DNA from: Escherichia phage VEcB
DNA length: 64,000 nucleotides
Sequence record: NC_052663.1
Strand: one strand, 5' to 3'
The position numbers were made by a program, and so were the translations under genes. This document shows, piece after piece, positions 33,399 to 38,144 of this stretch. Numbering within the stretch: the stretch's first letter is position 1; every line of letters begins with the position of its first letter. The notes under the pieces were generated by a model. The model was given only the letters and a program-made list of their open reading frames with translations. It was not told the origin of the DNA and ran no database searches.

Positions 33399-34805
33399 AT
33401 GGCAACTTTTCGTGATAAGGTAGTTTCCGTAACCCTTACCTACGGTGCTACTTCAATTAGTGAAACACAGTTTGATATCCCTCTAATTCTTACAGGGCAT
33501 AACGTTACTGGAAATCTTGTAGATTATTTCACTTCTTCAGACGCACTTCTGCAAGCAGGTTTTGGCACTGCCGATCCAGCTTATAAAATGGCAAAACTAC
33601 TATTTGACGGTCTGTTCGCACCAGAACAAGTTATCGTCGGTAAGCGTGATGTTTCTAAAACAACTCTAACTCCAGTAGTTGAAGATAGTGCAACTTACGT
33701 TATCACTATTAAAGCAAATTCAAAAAGCAAGGACTTCAAGTTTGTTGCCGATGATACTGCAACTGCTCAAGAGATTGTTGTTGGTTTAACAGAAATGATC
33801 AACGCAGACGCAGTGTATAAAGAATTTTTCACTGTGTCAAACGATGGTAGTGTTATCACTGTAACCCCAGTTGCAGGTAAATACGCTACTATGGATAGTT
33901 CAGGATTCACAACTAAAGTAGAATATGCAAATGATATCTTAGAAGATATTGCTAAAATTGCAGACTATGAAAACAGTTGGTTCTGGTTACTATCTGACTC
34001 TCACGCAGAACAAGATATTATCGATCTAGCAGGTTATGTAGAAGAGCATGATAAAGTGTATTTCTTCTCTACCTCGCAACCAGGTGTTCTAACTAAAGAA
34101 GAAGATAACATTCTAGAACGCTTAGGTGATATGGGCTACAATAACACTTGTATGGCATTGTGGATGACTAACGCTGATACAGTGTTCCCAGAGGCTGCTG
34201 TAGTTGGTTCTATCTGCTCTGCAACACCAGGTACTACTACCCTGCATGGTAAAACCCTTGTTGGTATCGAGATTGAAAAACTTGGTCAGACAGCAGAAAA
34301 CTTTATCGTTCAACAGAATGGTAATATTTACCGTAAAGAACACGGTGTTCTGTTCTACCGTGATGGTTTCATGGTTAGTGGTTTCTATGTTGACTATGTG
34401 GTACACGCTCTGTGGTTCAAAGCTCGCGTAGAAGAATCTCTGTTCGCTCTATTCAAACAGCAATCTATGCTTGGTAGTGGTGTTAGAGCAACTTCTGCTG
34501 GTCTTGCGTTGATTCGTCAGGCTGTTACTGCAAACCCAATCCAAGTAGGTATTAACAATGGTTCTATTGCCAATGAGGTAGTAACTTCAGAGGAAACAGG
34601 ACTTCTGGTAAGCCTTAAACCTACTATCTATATCCCATCTCGTGCAGATATGACTGATGCTCAAATCAATGCACGTTTGGTTGATGGTATGGTTATTGAA
34701 TACGTATATGCTGGATTCTTCCACTATGTTAAAGTGCAGGTAAACGTTCTGACGAACCGCACTGCAAATAGCCAGAATTCCAATAGCTCTACTGTATCTT
34801 CATAA
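33399..34805 (+). CDS. tail sheath protein (putative)
   Basis: 468 aa directly upstream of a 159-aa tube-sized gene, chaperone and tape measure; by synteny. Confidence 0.5.
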   Translation: MATFRDKVVSVTLTYGATSISETQFDIPLILTGHNVTGNLVDYFTSSDALLQAGFGTADPAYKMAKLLFDGLFAPEQVIVGKRDVSKTTLTPVVEDSATYVITIKANSKSKDFKFVADDTATAQEIVVGLTEMINADAVYKEFFTVSNDGSVITVTPVAGKYATMDSSGFTTKVEYANDILEDIAKIADYENSWFWLLSDSHAEQDIIDLAGYVEEHDKVYFFSTSQPGVLTKEEDNILERLGDMGYNNTCMALWMTNADTVFPEAAVVGSICSATPGTTTLHGKTLVGIEIEKLGQTAENFIVQQNGNIYRKEHGVLFYRDGFMVSGFYVDYVVHALWFKARVEESLFALFKQQSMLGSGVRATSAGLALIRQAVTANPIQVGINNGSIANEVVTSEETGLLVSLKPTIYIPSRADMTDAQINARLVDGMVIEYVYAGFFHYVKVQVNVLTNRTANSQNSNSSTVSS

Positions 34806-34809
34806 TTAA

Positions 34810-34836
34810 AAGCAGCGGGGGAAACCCCCGCTTATA
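34810..34836 (+). terminator. terminator-like hairpin (weak U tract)
   Basis: AGCGGGGG-AAA-CCCCCGCT followed by TATATG. Confidence 0.35.
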
Positions 34837-34864
34837 TGAAAAGTAGTATAAAAGGAGATCCACT

Positions 34865-35344
34865 TTGGATAAAATGCTTACTGGCGTAATGGCCTATGAT
34901 CCTTCTCAAGTAATCCTGTCTTTGGGTGGTTGGGAACCTTGGGGTTTCGCCGCAGATACCAAAATTGTTATTAACAAAACTAACGATATCATCAACCCAT
35001 ATTCAGGTACTGATGGTGACGTTTCCTTGGCTCTTAGTCGTAACCGTTTAGGTACGCTAACAATGTCACTGCAACGTACTTCCCCAGCAAACGAAGTTCT
35101 TGCTGCTTATGCACAAACGATGTATTCTACTCGTCAAGTAGCATTTAGCGTATATCTAGAAGACCCTCGCGGATATTATATCAGCACAATTGGTTGGATT
35201 CAAAGTCAACCGGACGACACTATTGGTGAAACTATTCAAGAAAACCAATGGGTAATTGGTCTTAAAGATGCAAGCCTACTTCGTTCTACTGTAGGTGTTG
35301 GTGTTAACGCACTTAACTCTATTAGTGCTCTAACTATTCAGTAA
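34865..35344 (+). CDS. tail tube protein (putative)
   Basis: 159 aa; track TTG start at 34865, alternative ATG at 34874. Confidence 0.45.
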   Translation: MDKMLTGVMAYDPSQVILSLGGWEPWGFAADTKIVINKTNDIINPYSGTDGDVSLALSRNRLGTLTMSLQRTSPANEVLAAYAQTMYSTRQVAFSVYLEDPRGYYISTIGWIQSQPDDTIGETIQENQWVIGLKDASLLRSTVGVGVNALNSISALTIQ

Positions 35345-35348
35345 CAAA

Positions 35349-35374
35349 AAGGGCAGAAATGCCCTTTATTTTTA
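35349..35374 (+). terminator. rho-independent terminator
   Basis: GGGCA-GAAAT-GCCC followed by TTTATTTTT. Confidence 0.55.
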
Positions 35375-35387
35375 AAGAGAGGAAATA

Positions 35388-35870
35388 ATGGAACAACAAA
35401 AAGATAATACTATTGCAAAATTTGCTCGTCCAGAAGTAATGGTTGAAATTGATCTGGATGAAGGACGCAGTGTAAAATTTAGAGTTCTCAAGTGGAGTCC
35501 AACTAAAGTTTTTGAAAGGATTCCAGAACTAGGTAGTGTACTAGCTGTTCCTATGACAATGTATAATACTGCTCTTATGTCAGCAGACGAAGATCTAGAA
35601 GCTCGTATTGCTATGGCACTGATCCAATTATTCAGTGGTCTGGAAGAAAAAAACTTAGCCGCATTCTTACGTAAAATTTTAGATGAAGTTTACACAGAAG
35701 CAGGTCATAGTGTTTCCGATAATTTTGATGAATTGTTTTTTGCTCACCCAGAATTAGTTGTTGACTTAGCTGCAAAAGTTCTTGAGGTGAACTATGCCCC
35801 TTTTTTCAAACGAGGTTTCGGAAAACTGTTGACCCAATTTCAAGGAATAGAGACTCTAGCGAAGAGTTAA
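35388..35870 (+). CDS. tail assembly chaperone (G-like)
   Basis: 160 aa, immediately upstream of tape measure; contains slippery heptamer near 3' end. Confidence 0.5.
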   Translation: MEQQKDNTIAKFARPEVMVEIDLDEGRSVKFRVLKWSPTKVFERIPELGSVLAVPMTMYNTALMSADEDLEARIAMALIQLFSGLEEKNLAAFLRKILDEVYTEAGHSVSDNFDELFFAHPELVVDLAAKVLEVNYAPFFKRGFGKLLTQFQGIETLAKS

Positions 35871-36145
35871 GTCCGGCAATTAAATCAGCAATTGAAATTG
35901 CCTCACAAACCCTTAGCTTGACATGGTATGAAGTAATTCTTTGTAAGGTAATTAAGAATACCTCCGAAACCTTGTCCTCGTTAGATAATTACGGTGTAGA
36001 TTATCTACTTAAAATTTATGAATATTTAACATTTGAAGACTATGTACAAGATCTTCACGTTAAAGATGCGGATATTAAACGTGGTCAACAGAGAACAATA
36101 AGAGAACTGGATACGGCTATGAAAAAATTAATTCCAGATTCATAA
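35388..36145 (+). CDS. predicted frameshifted chaperone fusion product (GT-like)
   Basis: -1 frame after slip at 35801-35807 reads FFQTRFRKTVDP... with no stop until 36145. Confidence 0.4.
35801..35807 (+). other. candidate -1 programmed ribosomal frameshift site (T_TTT_TTC)
   Basis: X_XXY_YYZ heptamer in zero frame of chaperone gene; the -1 frame is open from here to 36145. Confidence 0.45.
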
Positions 36146-36164
36146 GTAATACGGAGGATTACCC

Positions 36165-38144
36165 TTGTTAGAAATTAACACTTCCAAGATTAAGAATACA
36201 GTAACGTTTACTGTAGATAAAGACAGTTTAAAAAATACTAAAGACGCAATTAAAAACCTTAAAACTTTTACAGAATCTATTGAACCATCTTTAAATATGA
36301 CTAAAATGCGTCGTCAGTTTAAAAGTATGGAAGAGTATGCTAAAAGAATAAGGCAGCAAATGTCAGGTCTTGGCGGCGGTAATCCTCCACCAATCCCACC
36401 AACCGGAGGTTCAAGTGGTGGTGGAAAAGGAGGAAGTGGTAGAGGTGGTTCTGGATCTTCTGGAGGACGTAAGACACCAGAGGAAAGAGCCGCAGAAGCC
36501 GCCGCTAAACGTGCAGCACTTGCTAATATGAAGCAAGACGATTTTAGTTTTAAAGCTATGCCTTTTACAAAAGCAGACAGCAGAATTCTAGAAAAATCTA
36601 AAAAGATTGTAGAAGAAACTGTTGAACTTTATCGTAAAGGTGTAATCACTAGCCAACAAATGAATAATACTTTGGCTAGACAGTTAGAAGAACTACGCAG
36701 ATCTCATAAAGAGAAGAATGCACAACTTCTTGATGAAGAGAGAGCTAGACGTAGAATTGCCCGTCTGCAAGAAGCAGAAGATAAAAGAAGACAGCGTGTT
36801 CGAGAAAGAGAAAGAAAGGAGTTCGAACGTCAGCAAAGGAGAGAAAAAGAAGCAAGACAGCGAGATAGACAACGTAAGCTATCTGGTGTAGGTAATGCTG
36901 CTATTGCTCTTAACCCTGCTATGTTTGGTGCTGCTCTTTTAGGTGCTGGTTTATATCAAGGTATAAGCAAAATAGCTGAAAGTATCACAACTGCGGCAGA
37001 ACGTATTAATATGGTTAGTAAAGGTGGTCAGAACGTACAGGTAAACCCTAATGCAATTTTAACAATGCGTACTTGGGGTGAGATGAACGGTGTAGACTCT
37101 GCCAGCATTATTAAAGCCATTGACAATATTAAAGACGTTCGTGAACGTTTAGGTAATACTGTACTCCACTCTGAATTTGATGAAAAATCAGGTAAATGGA
37201 AAGGTGGAGATAGTGGTATTAATGAAATCATGAACCAATTTGGTTGGTCGAAAGAAGATGTTGCTAAATTCCAGAACAGACCTTTAGACTTTGTTCAAGC
37301 ACTTGTTAATGAAGGTCAAAAAAGAGGAATGAACTCCGCGCAAATTGGTCGTTTGATGGAAAACCTTGGTGATGACTTAATGCACTACCAACGTATGTTT
37401 TTGGATAACGGTAAAGAGTACATGAAAGTCTTGGATATGTTAAAAAATTCAGGAGCAACTCTTAACGATGAAAACATCAAAGCAGCACAAGATTTTGTTA
37501 AGCTAAGAGCACAAATTAGTGCAGCAGGAGAAGGTTTTACCAATAACTTACTTATAGGATTTATGGATGGTTTAAAATCTGCACCAGATTTTGCAGAGAA
37601 TATGAAAACTTTCCAAGAAGCTGCTCGTGGTCTTGGTGAAATGTCTGGTAGTATTGTAAGTAGCCTTGCAAAAATTGCGAAATATTTCCTTGATTTTTCA
37701 AATAAGGTTGGGCCAAAAAACAATACTAAAGAAGCTGTAAGAGATTATTATAATGGTACGCAGTATGGGTACGATGCACAGGTTGGTGGTAATCCTTGGG
37801 CTTATTGGCCTATTGGAAGAGATCAACATAAACCTGAAAATCAACCTTTAGGTGACTTTGATAGTAGTTTCTTAACTAGTGCCTTAAACCCAAGTGCTTC
37901 TAGTATCGGTTACAATAGACCTGATTTAACAGCATCTATGCTAACACCACGCCAAGGTGTTCCAGTACCATTAAGTGTAGAGAATACGGTTGTTATCCCA
38001 GACAACGCATTCCAGATTAATGTTATTCCAGATGGCTATGGTTTTAGTAATTATCTAGATGCGACAATGAATACCAGTTTTAGTAACTTCTCACAAGGTT
38101 TAACTCTTCAGTTAAGCAGTGGACAATCTTCTACTGGTGGTTAA
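36165..38144 (+). CDS. tail tape measure protein
   Basis: 659 aa; Gly-rich and Arg/Glu-rich coiled-coil segments; TTG start with GGAGGA RBS; follows chaperone pair. Confidence 0.7.
   Translation: MLEINTSKIKNTVTFTVDKDSLKNTKDAIKNLKTFTESIEPSLNMTKMRRQFKSMEEYAKRIRQQMSGLGGGNPPPIPPTGGSSGGGKGGSGRGGSGSSGGRKTPEERAAEAAAKRAALANMKQDDFSFKAMPFTKADSRILEKSKKIVEETVELYRKGVITSQQMNNTLARQLEELRRSHKEKNAQLLDEERARRRIARLQEAEDKRRQRVRERERKEFERQQRREKEARQRDRQRKLSGVGNAAIALNPAMFGAALLGAGLYQGISKIAESITTAAERINMVSKGGQNVQVNPNAILTMRTWGEMNGVDSASIIKAIDNIKDVRERLGNTVLHSEFDEKSGKWKGGDSGINEIMNQFGWSKEDVAKFQNRPLDFVQALVNEGQKRGMNSAQIGRLMENLGDDLMHYQRMFLDNGKEYMKVLDMLKNSGATLNDENIKAAQDFVKLRAQISAAGEGFTNNLLIGFMDGLKSAPDFAENMKTFQEAARGLGEMSGSIVSSLAKIAKYFLDFSNKVGPKNNTKEAVRDYYNGTQYGYDAQVGGNPWAYWPIGRDQHKPENQPLGDFDSSFLTSALNPSASSIGYNRPDLTASMLTPRQGVPVPLSVENTVVIPDNAFQINVIPDGYGFSNYLDATMNTSFSNFSQGLTLQLSSGQSSTGG

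What the first reader, a model, noticed from the sequence alone, without database searches (positions are those of the whole stretch)
35388..36145. Candidate -1 programmed frameshift giving a G/GT-like tail chaperone pair upstream of the tape measure gene
The 160-codon chaperone ORF contains the slippery heptamer T_TTT_TTC at 35801-35807, 21 codons before its stop. The -1 frame is open from that point for a further 113 codons to 36145, ending just before the tape measure start. This mirrors the conserved G/GT frameshift of tailed phages.
Basis: partly seen in the sequence, partly recalled or inferred. Interest (0 to 1): 0.5.

Follow-up and report, generated by a model that had tools for sequence, protein, structure and literature searches.

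The report
Unannotated tail-chaperone frameshift in phi92-like phage
This E. coli phage (phi92/alia type) very probably makes its tail assembly chaperone in a short and a long form by a programmed -1 ribosomal slip on T_TTT_TTC, an ordinary and expected phage device that public annotations of this phage group have missed.

Summary
The window is a Justusliebigvirus (99.6% to Escherichia phage alia). Gene order is sheath, tube, chaperone 35388-35870 (Pfam Phage_TAC_15, E=1.6e-22), a -1-frame ORF reaching 36145, then tape measure at 36165.

T_TTT_TTC (35801-35807) is in 0-frame register. The -1 frame is open from 35786 to 36145, which has a chance of about 3e-7.

In all 52 related loci (33 distinct contexts, about 30% amino-acid identity between the two subfamilies), the heptamer is invariant. 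This includes its synonymous positions (CCT/TGT/AGT, TTT, TTC). The -1 frame always runs to just before the tape measure gene.

Residues R-F encoded in the -1 frame inside the overlap are invariant. The stretch upstream of the annotated TTG start evolves as -1-frame coding sequence (pN/pS 0.35). There is no start codon or Shine-Dalgarno sequence there. One relative has a -1-frame TAG abutting the T-run, which pins the entry point.

No conserved stimulatory RNA structure was found. The predicted products are a 160-aa G-like protein and a 252-aa GT-like protein.

The mechanism is inferred, not demonstrated. None of the records inspected (about 20 in detail, about 200 by listed feature name) annotates a fused product, and none of the papers I found reports the frameshift for this lineage. 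Related families do have such predictions. Verdict: a real but ordinary new member of a known kind.

The parts
35348..35367 (+). Terminator-like hairpin (AAAGGGCA-gaaa-TGCCCTTT followed by a T-run) between the tail tube stop and the chaperone start. It probably lowers transcription of the chaperone and tape measure genes relative to sheath and tube.
   Evidence: A terminator is annotated at the equivalent place in phAPEC8. The function is inferred.
35379..35382 (+). Shine-Dalgarno GAGG of the chaperone gene.
   Evidence: Sequence. The phi92 record annotates the same RBS.
35388..35870 (+). Tail assembly chaperone, 0-frame product (G-like / TAC-N), 160 aa. The modelled fold spans about residues 13-141. 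Residues 142-160, after the slip site, are predicted to be disordered.
   Evidence: Pfam PF21822 E=1.6e-22; phrog_3840 E=4e-54; AlphaFold2 model pLDDT 70, pTM 0.66; BFVD fold matches to phage tail assembly / tape measure chaperones.
35784..35787 (+). SD-like GAGG (GGAGG in several relatives) 13 nt upstream of the heptamer. It is a possible stimulator of the -1 shift, but it is confounded by the conserved Leu-Glu-Val codons.
   Evidence: It is present in most lineages but not all (absent in the phiTE, KB57, SSBI34 and L045 types). Its role as a stimulator is inferred only.
35798..35804 (+). Second, overlapping in-register heptamer C_CCT_TTT. It would give the same fusion protein. It is conserved only within Stephanstirmvirinae.
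   Evidence: It is absent from Vequintavirinae-like relatives, which have TGT or AGT in place of CCT.
35801..35807 (+). Slippery heptamer T_TTT_TTC, the proposed site of the -1 ribosomal frameshift (P site TTT to TTT, A site TTC to TTT).
   Evidence: It is invariant in 52 of 52 loci and 33 distinct contexts, including at synonymous positions. L031 has a -1-frame TAG directly before the T-run.
35807..35870 (+). Dual-coding overlap. The 0 frame encodes the disordered tail of the short chaperone. The -1 frame encodes QTRFRKTV... with invariant Arg-Phe.
   Evidence: R143 and F144 are invariant in alignment A2. The 0-frame synonymous diversity drops to 0.19 against 0.71 upstream. The 0-frame Gly codon is always GGT, because its T is the first base of the -1-frame Phe codon.
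35807..36145 (+). -1-frame extension (T-like / TAC-C part): 112 codons plus TAA. With residues 1-140 of the chaperone it gives a predicted 252-aa fusion. It has a flexible linker (about 19 aa) followed by a helical domain.
   Evidence: Coding signature in the -1 frame: the linker 35870-35917 has pN/pS 0.35 and the domain 35918-36142 has pN/pS 0.30. phrog_16039 E=3e-45. The model has low confidence (pLDDT 60) and is helical.
35918..36145 (+). The 75-codon ORF that public records annotate as a separate hypothetical protein (TTG start, no SD). Here it is interpreted as the 3' part of the frameshift product.
   Evidence: Gene callers give homologues 64-84 aa long, with inconsistent start positions.
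36165..38144 (+). Tape measure protein gene (TTG start, GGAGG at 36153-36157). Its product is the presumed client of the chaperone.
   Evidence: phrog_16051 E=0. Its phi92 orthologue gp134 was identified as the tape measure protein by cryo-EM (PMC13450770).

Best explanation
Ribosomes translating the chaperone gene (35388-35870) mostly terminate at 35868-35870 and make the 160-aa chaperone. A minority slip back one base on U_UUU_UUC (35801-35807), when tRNA-Phe occupies both the P and A sites. These ribosomes continue in the -1 frame to 36145 and make a 252-aa protein (...NYAPFF|QTRFRK...). It shares residues 1-140 with the chaperone and carries a linker and a helical C-terminal domain.

By analogy with lambda G/GT and P2 E/E+E', both forms would bind the tape measure protein encoded immediately downstream. 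The extra domain of the long form would recruit tail tube subunits. Neither form would remain in the virion.

Shown here: the site, its phasing, its deep conservation, -1-frame coding selection from the site onward, and the lack of an independent start. Inferred: that the slip is ribosomal, its efficiency, and the assembly role of the two proteins.
For: - Anatomy and phasing.
- The gene is a tail assembly chaperone lying between the tube and tape measure genes.
- The open -1 frame has a chance probability of about 3e-7, and the site is unique in the window.
- The heptamer is invariant in 52 loci. The residue before Phe-Phe varies (P, C or S) but its wobble base is always T, and Phe-Phe is always TTT-TTC. 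Neighbouring synonymous sites are close to saturation, with pS about 0.7.
- The -1 frame is never interrupted, and the two parts are never fused in frame.
- R-F encoded in the -1 frame within the overlap is invariant.
- FV3 changes the 0-frame Phe to Leu yet keeps R-F-R in the -1 frame.
- The linker upstream of the annotated TTG start has substitution counts of 145/74/288 at -1-frame codon positions 1/2/3, with pN/pS 0.35.
- There is no ATG, GTG or TTG in the -1 frame between the stop at 35783-85 and 35918. No SD is present, and candidate starts are not conserved among relatives.
- A -1-frame TAG abuts the T-run in L031, which sets the 5' limit of the shift window.
- All-pyrimidine UUN heptamers are frameshift-prone in E. 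coli (PMC4066793).
- Myophage P2 uses TTTTTTG with no downstream structure (PMC3091744).
- The same kind of frameshift has been predicted in related families (PMC12846349; Moogle, PMC4319497).
- The phi92 cryo-EM component list lacks gp132 and gp133.
Against: - No protein or reporter data exist for this phage or any relative that I could find.
- No conserved downstream RNA structure was found (z = -1.2; consensus energy -1.8 kcal/mol).
- The upstream SD-like motif is not universal. Heptamers without stimulators typically shift at a low rate in E. coli reporters.
- A run of six T could in principle also support RNA polymerase slippage. Sequence analysis cannot separate that from ribosomal slippage.
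- The model of the C-terminal domain has low confidence, so its T-like function rests on position and analogy.
Confidence: 0.85

Rival explanations
1. Transcriptional slippage. RNA polymerase adds one extra U on the T6 run (C4T6 in this phage). This creates a minority mRNA in which standard translation yields the same 252-aa fusion.
For: The conserved element is a homopolymeric run. The product would be identical, so all the comparative evidence fits this reading equally well. No ribosomal stimulator was found. The review PMC5009743 documents slippage on T/C runs in other systems.
Against: Six U is shorter than the runs of about 8-9 or more that usually give appreciable slippage by bacterial RNA polymerase (general knowledge; not tested here). 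The window contains 30 T6 runs and 39 A6 runs, so T6 is not avoided elsewhere. The final C and the exact X_XXY_YYZ phasing are invariant. However, the C is also fixed by the -1-frame Q/H/R codon. Homologous chaperone pairs studied experimentally (lambda, P2) use ribosomal frameshifting.
Confidence: 0.08
2. Two separate genes, as in the public annotations. In this reading, ORF 35918-36145 is translated from its own TTG (or another start) as an independent small protein, and the heptamer is incidental.
For: Many GenBank records annotate a separate hypothetical protein here. A TTG exists at 35918.
Against: The TTG has no SD. Candidate starts fall at different codons in relatives (29, 31, 36, 38), and some relatives have only late ones. 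The called ORF lengths vary from 64 to 84 aa, and several records omit the ORF altogether. The 48 nt upstream of the TTG evolve as -1-frame coding sequence. -1-frame residues inside the overlap are invariant. Synonymous positions of the heptamer are frozen.
Confidence: 0.04
3. Chance co-occurrence with no recoding. In this reading, the -1 ORF is not expressed.
For: None beyond the lack of experimental data.
Against: P is about 3e-7 for the open frame. pN/pS is 0.30 in the -1 ORF. The arrangement is conserved in two subfamilies at about 30% identity.
Confidence: 0.01

Closest known systems
Bacteriophage lambda G/GT tail assembly chaperones (-1 PRF at G_GGA_AAG; Levin 1993, Xu 2004/2013/2014, as summarised in PMC5009743)
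   Same: There are two proteins with a common N-terminus, made from overlapping ORFs. The ORFs sit between the major tail/tube gene and the tape measure gene. [quoted passage not shown] The extension has no start of its own. The arrangement is conserved despite sequence divergence.
   Different: There is no detectable sequence homology: the Pfam scan gave only PF21822 for the N part and nothing for the extension. The heptamer is different. The host phage is a myovirus. The sizes are 160 and 252 aa. The lambda product ratio (about 30:1) is unknown here.
Myophage P2 E / E+E' (-1 PRF at TTTTTTG; PMC3091744 citing Christie 2002 and Xu 2004)
   Same: It is a contractile-tailed phage with a poly-T heptamer of almost the same sequence. 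No downstream RNA structure is present. The gene position is the same.
   Different: The last base is C rather than G. The proteins are much larger than E (91 aa) and E+E' (142 aa), and they are unrelated in sequence.
[quoted passage not shown]
   Same: These clades are evolutionarily related, with syntenic tail modules. They have a conserved poly-T motif (GTTTTT) near the 3' end of TAC-N and an uninterrupted -1 frame across regions annotated as intergenic or as hypothetical proteins. The evidence is the same kind of comparative evidence. The Moogle chaperone appears among the fold matches.
   Different: Those studies did not cover Stephanstirmvirinae or Vequintavirinae. Here the full heptamer T_TTT_TTC is defined and its position is bracketed. 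In Stephanstirmvirinae the base before the run is C rather than G.
E. coli dnaX gamma/tau -1 PRF (A_AAA_AAG with an upstream SD and a downstream hairpin)
   Same: It is a heptamer-type -1 shift in the same host. An upstream SD-like element at a comparable distance is possible (GAGG, 13 nt upstream).
   Different: dnaX has a strong downstream stem-loop and shifts at about 50% to a truncated product. Here no structure was found, and the shift extends the protein.

Membership tests
Conserved tail-assembly-chaperone -1 frameshift (lambda G/GT type, Xu et al. 2004) | Two overlapping ORFs located between the major tail (tube) gene and the tape measure gene | tested here: met
   Tube 34865-35344, chaperone 35388-35870, -1 ORF to 36145, tape measure 36165-38144.
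Conserved tail-assembly-chaperone -1 frameshift (lambda G/GT type, Xu et al. 2004) | [quoted passage not shown] | tested here: met
   T_TTT_TTC at 35801-35807, ending at codon 140 of 160.
Conserved tail-assembly-chaperone -1 frameshift (lambda G/GT type, Xu et al. 2004) | The downstream ORF lacks its own start and RBS, and is coding upstream of any candidate start | tested here: met
   No ATG, GTG or TTG between 35786 and 35917, and no SD. The linker has pN/pS 0.35 in the -1 frame.
Conserved tail-assembly-chaperone -1 frameshift (lambda G/GT type, Xu et al. 2004) | The arrangement and slip site are conserved among diverged relatives | tested here: met
   52 of 52 loci and 33 distinct contexts, spanning two subfamilies at about 30% amino-acid identity.
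Conserved tail-assembly-chaperone -1 frameshift (lambda G/GT type, Xu et al. 2004) | Two proteins with a shared N-terminus are actually produced, in a fixed ratio | not testable with these tools
   This needs mass spectrometry, western blots or a reporter assay. I found no published proteomic evidence.
Conserved tail-assembly-chaperone -1 frameshift (lambda G/GT type, Xu et al. 2004) | Both products are required for tail assembly but are absent from virions | not testable with these tools
   There is only indirect support: the phi92 cryo-EM component list does not include gp132 or gp133.
Pfam PF21822 Phage_TAC_15 (tail assembly chaperone) | Score above the family gathering threshold | tested here: met
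   80.8 bits against a cutoff of 22, covering residues 29-144. All 45 homologues carry PF21822.
Lambda gpG / gpT sequence families | Detectable sequence homology of the N part to gpG or of the extension to gpT | tested here: not met
   The Pfam scan at E<=1 returned no lambda G or T family for either part. No PDB sequence relative was found. The HK97 chaperone 2OB9 gave only a non-significant fold hit, E=0.4.
Stimulated -1 PRF cassettes (dnaX / IS911 type) | Conserved downstream hairpin or pseudoknot 5-9 nt after the heptamer | tested here: not met
   MFE z-score -1.2. RNAalifold consensus energy -1.8 kcal/mol with no supported helix. No Rfam family reached its threshold.

The most novel reading that the evidence does not exclude
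The roughly 56-nt island centred on the heptamer is frozen at the nucleotide level across two phage subfamilies. It might be more than a slip site plus dual coding. It could contain an unrecognised stimulator, such as the upstream SD-like GGAG or a nascent-peptide effect of the invariant NY-x-x-FF motif. Alternatively, the long form could be made by RNA polymerase slippage on only six U. That would be an unusually short programmed transcriptional slippage site for E. coli RNA polymerase.
Probability: 0.1. Interest if true: 0.45.

Novelty: new member of a known kind. Interest (0 to 1): 0.27.

Why it matters
It corrects the annotation of a large group of therapeutic and typing coliphages: phi92-like, phAPEC8-like, rV5-like and PVP-SE1-like phages, about 370 GenBank records by tblastn. 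In the records inspected, the 3' part of the long chaperone is either listed as a separate hypothetical protein or left as an intergenic gap.

It adds a well-bracketed slip site (T_TTT_TTC, apparently without a stimulatory structure) to the catalogue of phage recoding signals. It also extends the recent prediction for Pakpunavirus and Felix O1-like phages to two further related subfamilies. This supports the view that the frameshift is ancestral to that whole myovirus assemblage.

It does not change any concept. The G/GT-type frameshift has been known since 1993 and has been recognised as near-universal in long-tailed phages since 2004.

Tried and rejected
- **Downstream stimulatory RNA.** Single-sequence folding of 35808-35900 and RNAalifold on six relatives gave nothing conserved. 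The small hairpins that can be drawn directly after the heptamer differ between subfamilies and lie too close to the slip site.
- **Rfam.** There were only two sub-threshold hits (SraG and a CRISPR repeat, both on the minus strand). I treat them as chance.
- **Natural in-frame fusions.** A search with the 252-aa fusion found 45 homologues, all about 160 aa and covering only the N part. A search with the extension alone found only ORFs of 64-84 aa.
- **Structure of the whole fusion.** The extension alone gave a low-confidence helical model (pLDDT 60), so I did not run a fold search on it. The N-part model matched phage chaperones in BFVD but had no significant PDB match. A PDB sequence search was empty.
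- **Other heptamers in the gene.** A_AAA_AAC at 35648 gives only a 6-codon -1 extension. The T6 run at 35736 leads to the TGA at 35783-85.
- **Other long -1 extensions in the window.** These are nested spurious ORFs.
- **Literature.** I found no report of a frameshift for phi92, phAPEC8 or rV5. The paper by Vladimirov et al. 2022 on T4-like chaperones is not held in the library.

Full report
**Identity of the window.** The region 33399-38144 is 99.6% identical to Escherichia phage alia (Justusliebigvirus, Stephanstirmvirinae, the phi92 group). On the + strand the gene order is:
- tail sheath, 33399-34805
- tail tube, 34865-35344
- a 160-codon ORF, 35388-35870
- a 75-codon ORF, 35918-36145
- the tape measure gene, 36165-38144

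The 160-aa protein is a tail assembly chaperone. It hits Pfam PF21822 Phage_TAC_15 at 80.8 bits (cutoff 22) and phrog_3840 at E=4e-54. The tape measure assignment rests on phrog_16051 and on the cryo-EM identification of the phi92 orthologue gp134 (PMC13450770).

**The observation.** It is exact.
- The 0-frame codons are CCT(35799-801) TTT TTC(35805-807), so T_TTT_TTC at 35801-35807 is a phased X_XXY_YYZ heptamer ending at codon 140.
- After a -1 slip, decoding continues with CAA at 35807 for 112 codons, to TAA at 36143-36145. That is 19 nt before the tape measure start.
- An overlapping second heptamer, C_CCT_TTT (35798-35804), would give the same protein (...NYAPFF|QTRFRK..., 252 aa).
- The -1 frame of long genes in this 38% GC window has a stop every 8.5 codons on average. 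The longest other open run is 55 codons. The probability of an open run of at least 119 codons is about 3e-7.
- The three other heptamers with long -1 extensions lie in spurious ORFs. Two are nested inside real long genes; the third, on the minus strand, I did not check.

**Comparative test.** I collected the locus from five diverged Stephanstirmvirinae (65-79% DNA identity), phi92, nine Vequintavirinae-type phages (rV5/FV3, phiTE, KB57, GAP31, SSE121, Hena1, SSBI34, ABPH49, 24-2-1), three more records and 34 IMG/VR loci.
- In 52 of 52 loci that contain the chaperone, T_TTT_TTC is present in the same register, within the invariant motif N-Y-x-x-F-F.
- The -1 frame runs from the heptamer to just before the tape measure gene, adding 107-127 codons. 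One locus, L042, runs off the contig end with the frame still open.
- The two subfamilies share only about 24-30% amino-acid identity over the fusion.
- The residue before Phe-Phe varies (Pro, Cys or Ser) but its codon always ends in T (CCT, TGT, AGT). Phe-Phe is always TTT-TTC. Meanwhile the adjacent codons vary synonymously (AAC/AAT, TAT/TAC, GGC/GGA/GGT).
- 0-frame synonymous diversity drops to 0.19 in the ten codons around the site, against 0.71 upstream. In the Vequintavirinae-like set it drops to 0.38 against about 0.75.

**Is the -1 frame translated from the heptamer onward?** Four results say yes.
1. In the alignment of conceptual fusions, the invariant columns run N135, Y136, F139, F140 and then R143, F144. 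The last two are encoded in the -1 frame inside the overlap. The 0-frame Gly codon there is GGT in every lineage, because its T is the first base of the -1-frame Phe codon. FV3 changes the 0-frame Phe to Leu yet keeps Arg-Phe-Arg in the -1 frame.
2. The 48 nt between the 0-frame stop and the annotated TTG start (35870-35917) evolve as -1-frame coding sequence. Substitutions at -1-frame codon positions 1/2/3 number 145/74/288, with pN/pS 0.35. This is indistinguishable from the downstream domain (0.30).
3. The -1 frame has no ATG, GTG or TTG between its preceding stop (TGA 35783-85) and 35918. The TTG has no Shine-Dalgarno sequence. Candidate starts in relatives fall at different codons. Gene callers accordingly produce 64-84-aa versions or omit the ORF.
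4. In metagenomic relative L031 the sequence is GGT AGT TTT TTC, which puts a -1-frame TAG directly against the T-run. Entry into the -1 frame therefore cannot be upstream of the heptamer. Together with the invariant R-F a few codons downstream, this brackets the shift to the heptamer and the following one to three codons.

**Mechanism.** The best-supported reading is tandem -1 slippage of the two tRNA-Phe on U_UUU_UUC.
- Systematic measurements in E. coli show that UUN A-site codons, and heptamers with all-pyrimidine X and Z, are among the frameshift-prone classes (PMC4066793).
- The myophage P2 uses the near-identical TTTTTTG without any downstream structure (PMC3091744).
- I found no conserved stimulatory structure here: the MFE z-score is -1.2, the alifold consensus energy is -1.8 kcal/mol, and no Rfam family reached threshold.
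- An SD-like GAGG/GGAGG lies 13 nt upstream in most lineages but not all, and it coincides with conserved Leu-Glu-Val codons. It is a possible stimulator, not an established one.
- The frameshift efficiency cannot be estimated from sequence.
- Transcriptional slippage on the T6 run would give the same protein and cannot be excluded computationally. I rate it at about 8%, because the run is short and T6/A6 runs are common elsewhere in the window.

**Protein architecture.**
- The AlphaFold2 model of the 160-aa protein (pLDDT 70, pTM 0.66) has a folded core ending at residue 141, exactly at the slip site. Its 0-frame tail (142-160) is disordered.
- The model matches predicted structures of phage tail assembly and tape measure chaperones in BFVD. 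These include Citrobacter phage Moogle's frameshift-annotated 'tape measure chaperone' and a 'pre-tape measure frameshift protein G'.
- PDB matches were not significant; the HK97 chaperone 2OB9 scored E=0.4.
- The extension begins with a disordered linker of about 19 residues, followed by helices, at low confidence (pLDDT 60). In the Vequintavirinae-like phages the linker is longer and rich in Gly and Ser.
- This core-linker-domain layout is what a G/GT pair needs. The specific partners (tape measure protein for the core, tube protein for the extension) are inferred from lambda (PMC5009743).

**Comparison with what is known.** The conserved chaperone frameshift of long-tailed phages is textbook knowledge.
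- For the clades related to this phage, a 2025 study predicted a -1 frameshift with a conserved GTTTTT motif in Vandenendeviridae and Andersonviridae, using the same kind of comparative argument (PMC12846349). The Moogle genome announcement already noted a translational frameshift in its chaperone (PMC4319497).
- For Stephanstirmvirinae and Vequintavirinae I found no paper reporting a frameshift. The rV5 genome/proteome paper, the LL12 announcement and the 2026 phi92 cryo-EM paper do not mention it.
- No inspected GenBank or RefSeq record annotates a joined CDS. Among the roughly 180 further records whose feature names were listed, none shows a frameshift product.
- There is no sequence homology to lambda G or T. 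Membership is therefore in the functional class and in Pfam PF21822, not in the lambda families.

**Verdict.** It is an unannotated new member of a very well known kind. Its value lies in annotation and in a tidy example of a slip site pinned down by comparative genomics, not in conceptual novelty.

Noticed in passing
window 35348-35367: Terminator-like hairpin with a T-run, exactly between the tail tube stop (35344) and the chaperone start (35388). phAPEC8 has an annotated terminator at the same spot. It probably attenuates transcription into the chaperone and tape measure genes relative to sheath and tube.
   Followed up: partly
window 34814-34832: GC-rich 8-bp hairpin (AGCGGGGG-ttt-CCCCCGCT on the minus strand) in the short gap between the sheath and tube genes. 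The scan scored it as a minus-strand terminator, although all neighbouring genes are on the plus strand.
   Followed up: no
window 35345-35470 (minus strand): Sub-threshold Rfam match to the enterobacterial sRNA family SraG (36 bits against a gathering score of 50, E=3e-4). It overlaps the terminator hairpin and the start of the chaperone gene, and is probably chance.
   Followed up: no
window 35772-35827: Only this island of about 56 nt, centred on the slip site, is retained at the DNA level in distant phages (83.9% identity to Klebsiella phage KP13-16). The equivalent island of the rV5-type locus behaves the same way in phages 18-1-2 and TH18.
   Followed up: partly
GenBank MG0656xx records: More than 20 records named 'Campylobacter phage', with host given as C. 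jejuni, are 98-99.7% identical to E. coli phi92-like or rV5-like phages over this locus. The host label looks doubtful: contamination, or an E. coli phage carried along with the sample.
   Followed up: no
L031:1582-1599 (IMGVR_UViG_3300045988_163358): This relative has GGT AGT TTT TTC, which places a -1-frame TAG directly against the T-run. It is a natural marker for the 5' boundary of the frameshift window.
   Followed up: yes
window 35733-35741: A second run of six T (TTG TTT TTT) lies 65 nt upstream in the same gene. A -1 slip there would terminate at TGA 35783-85 and give a truncated chaperone.
   Followed up: partly
window 36165 versus about 36317: Public records disagree on the tape measure start. 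alia and phi92 use the TTG at 36165, which has a strong GGAGG. Phage Eryne's record starts 152 nt further downstream.
   Followed up: no
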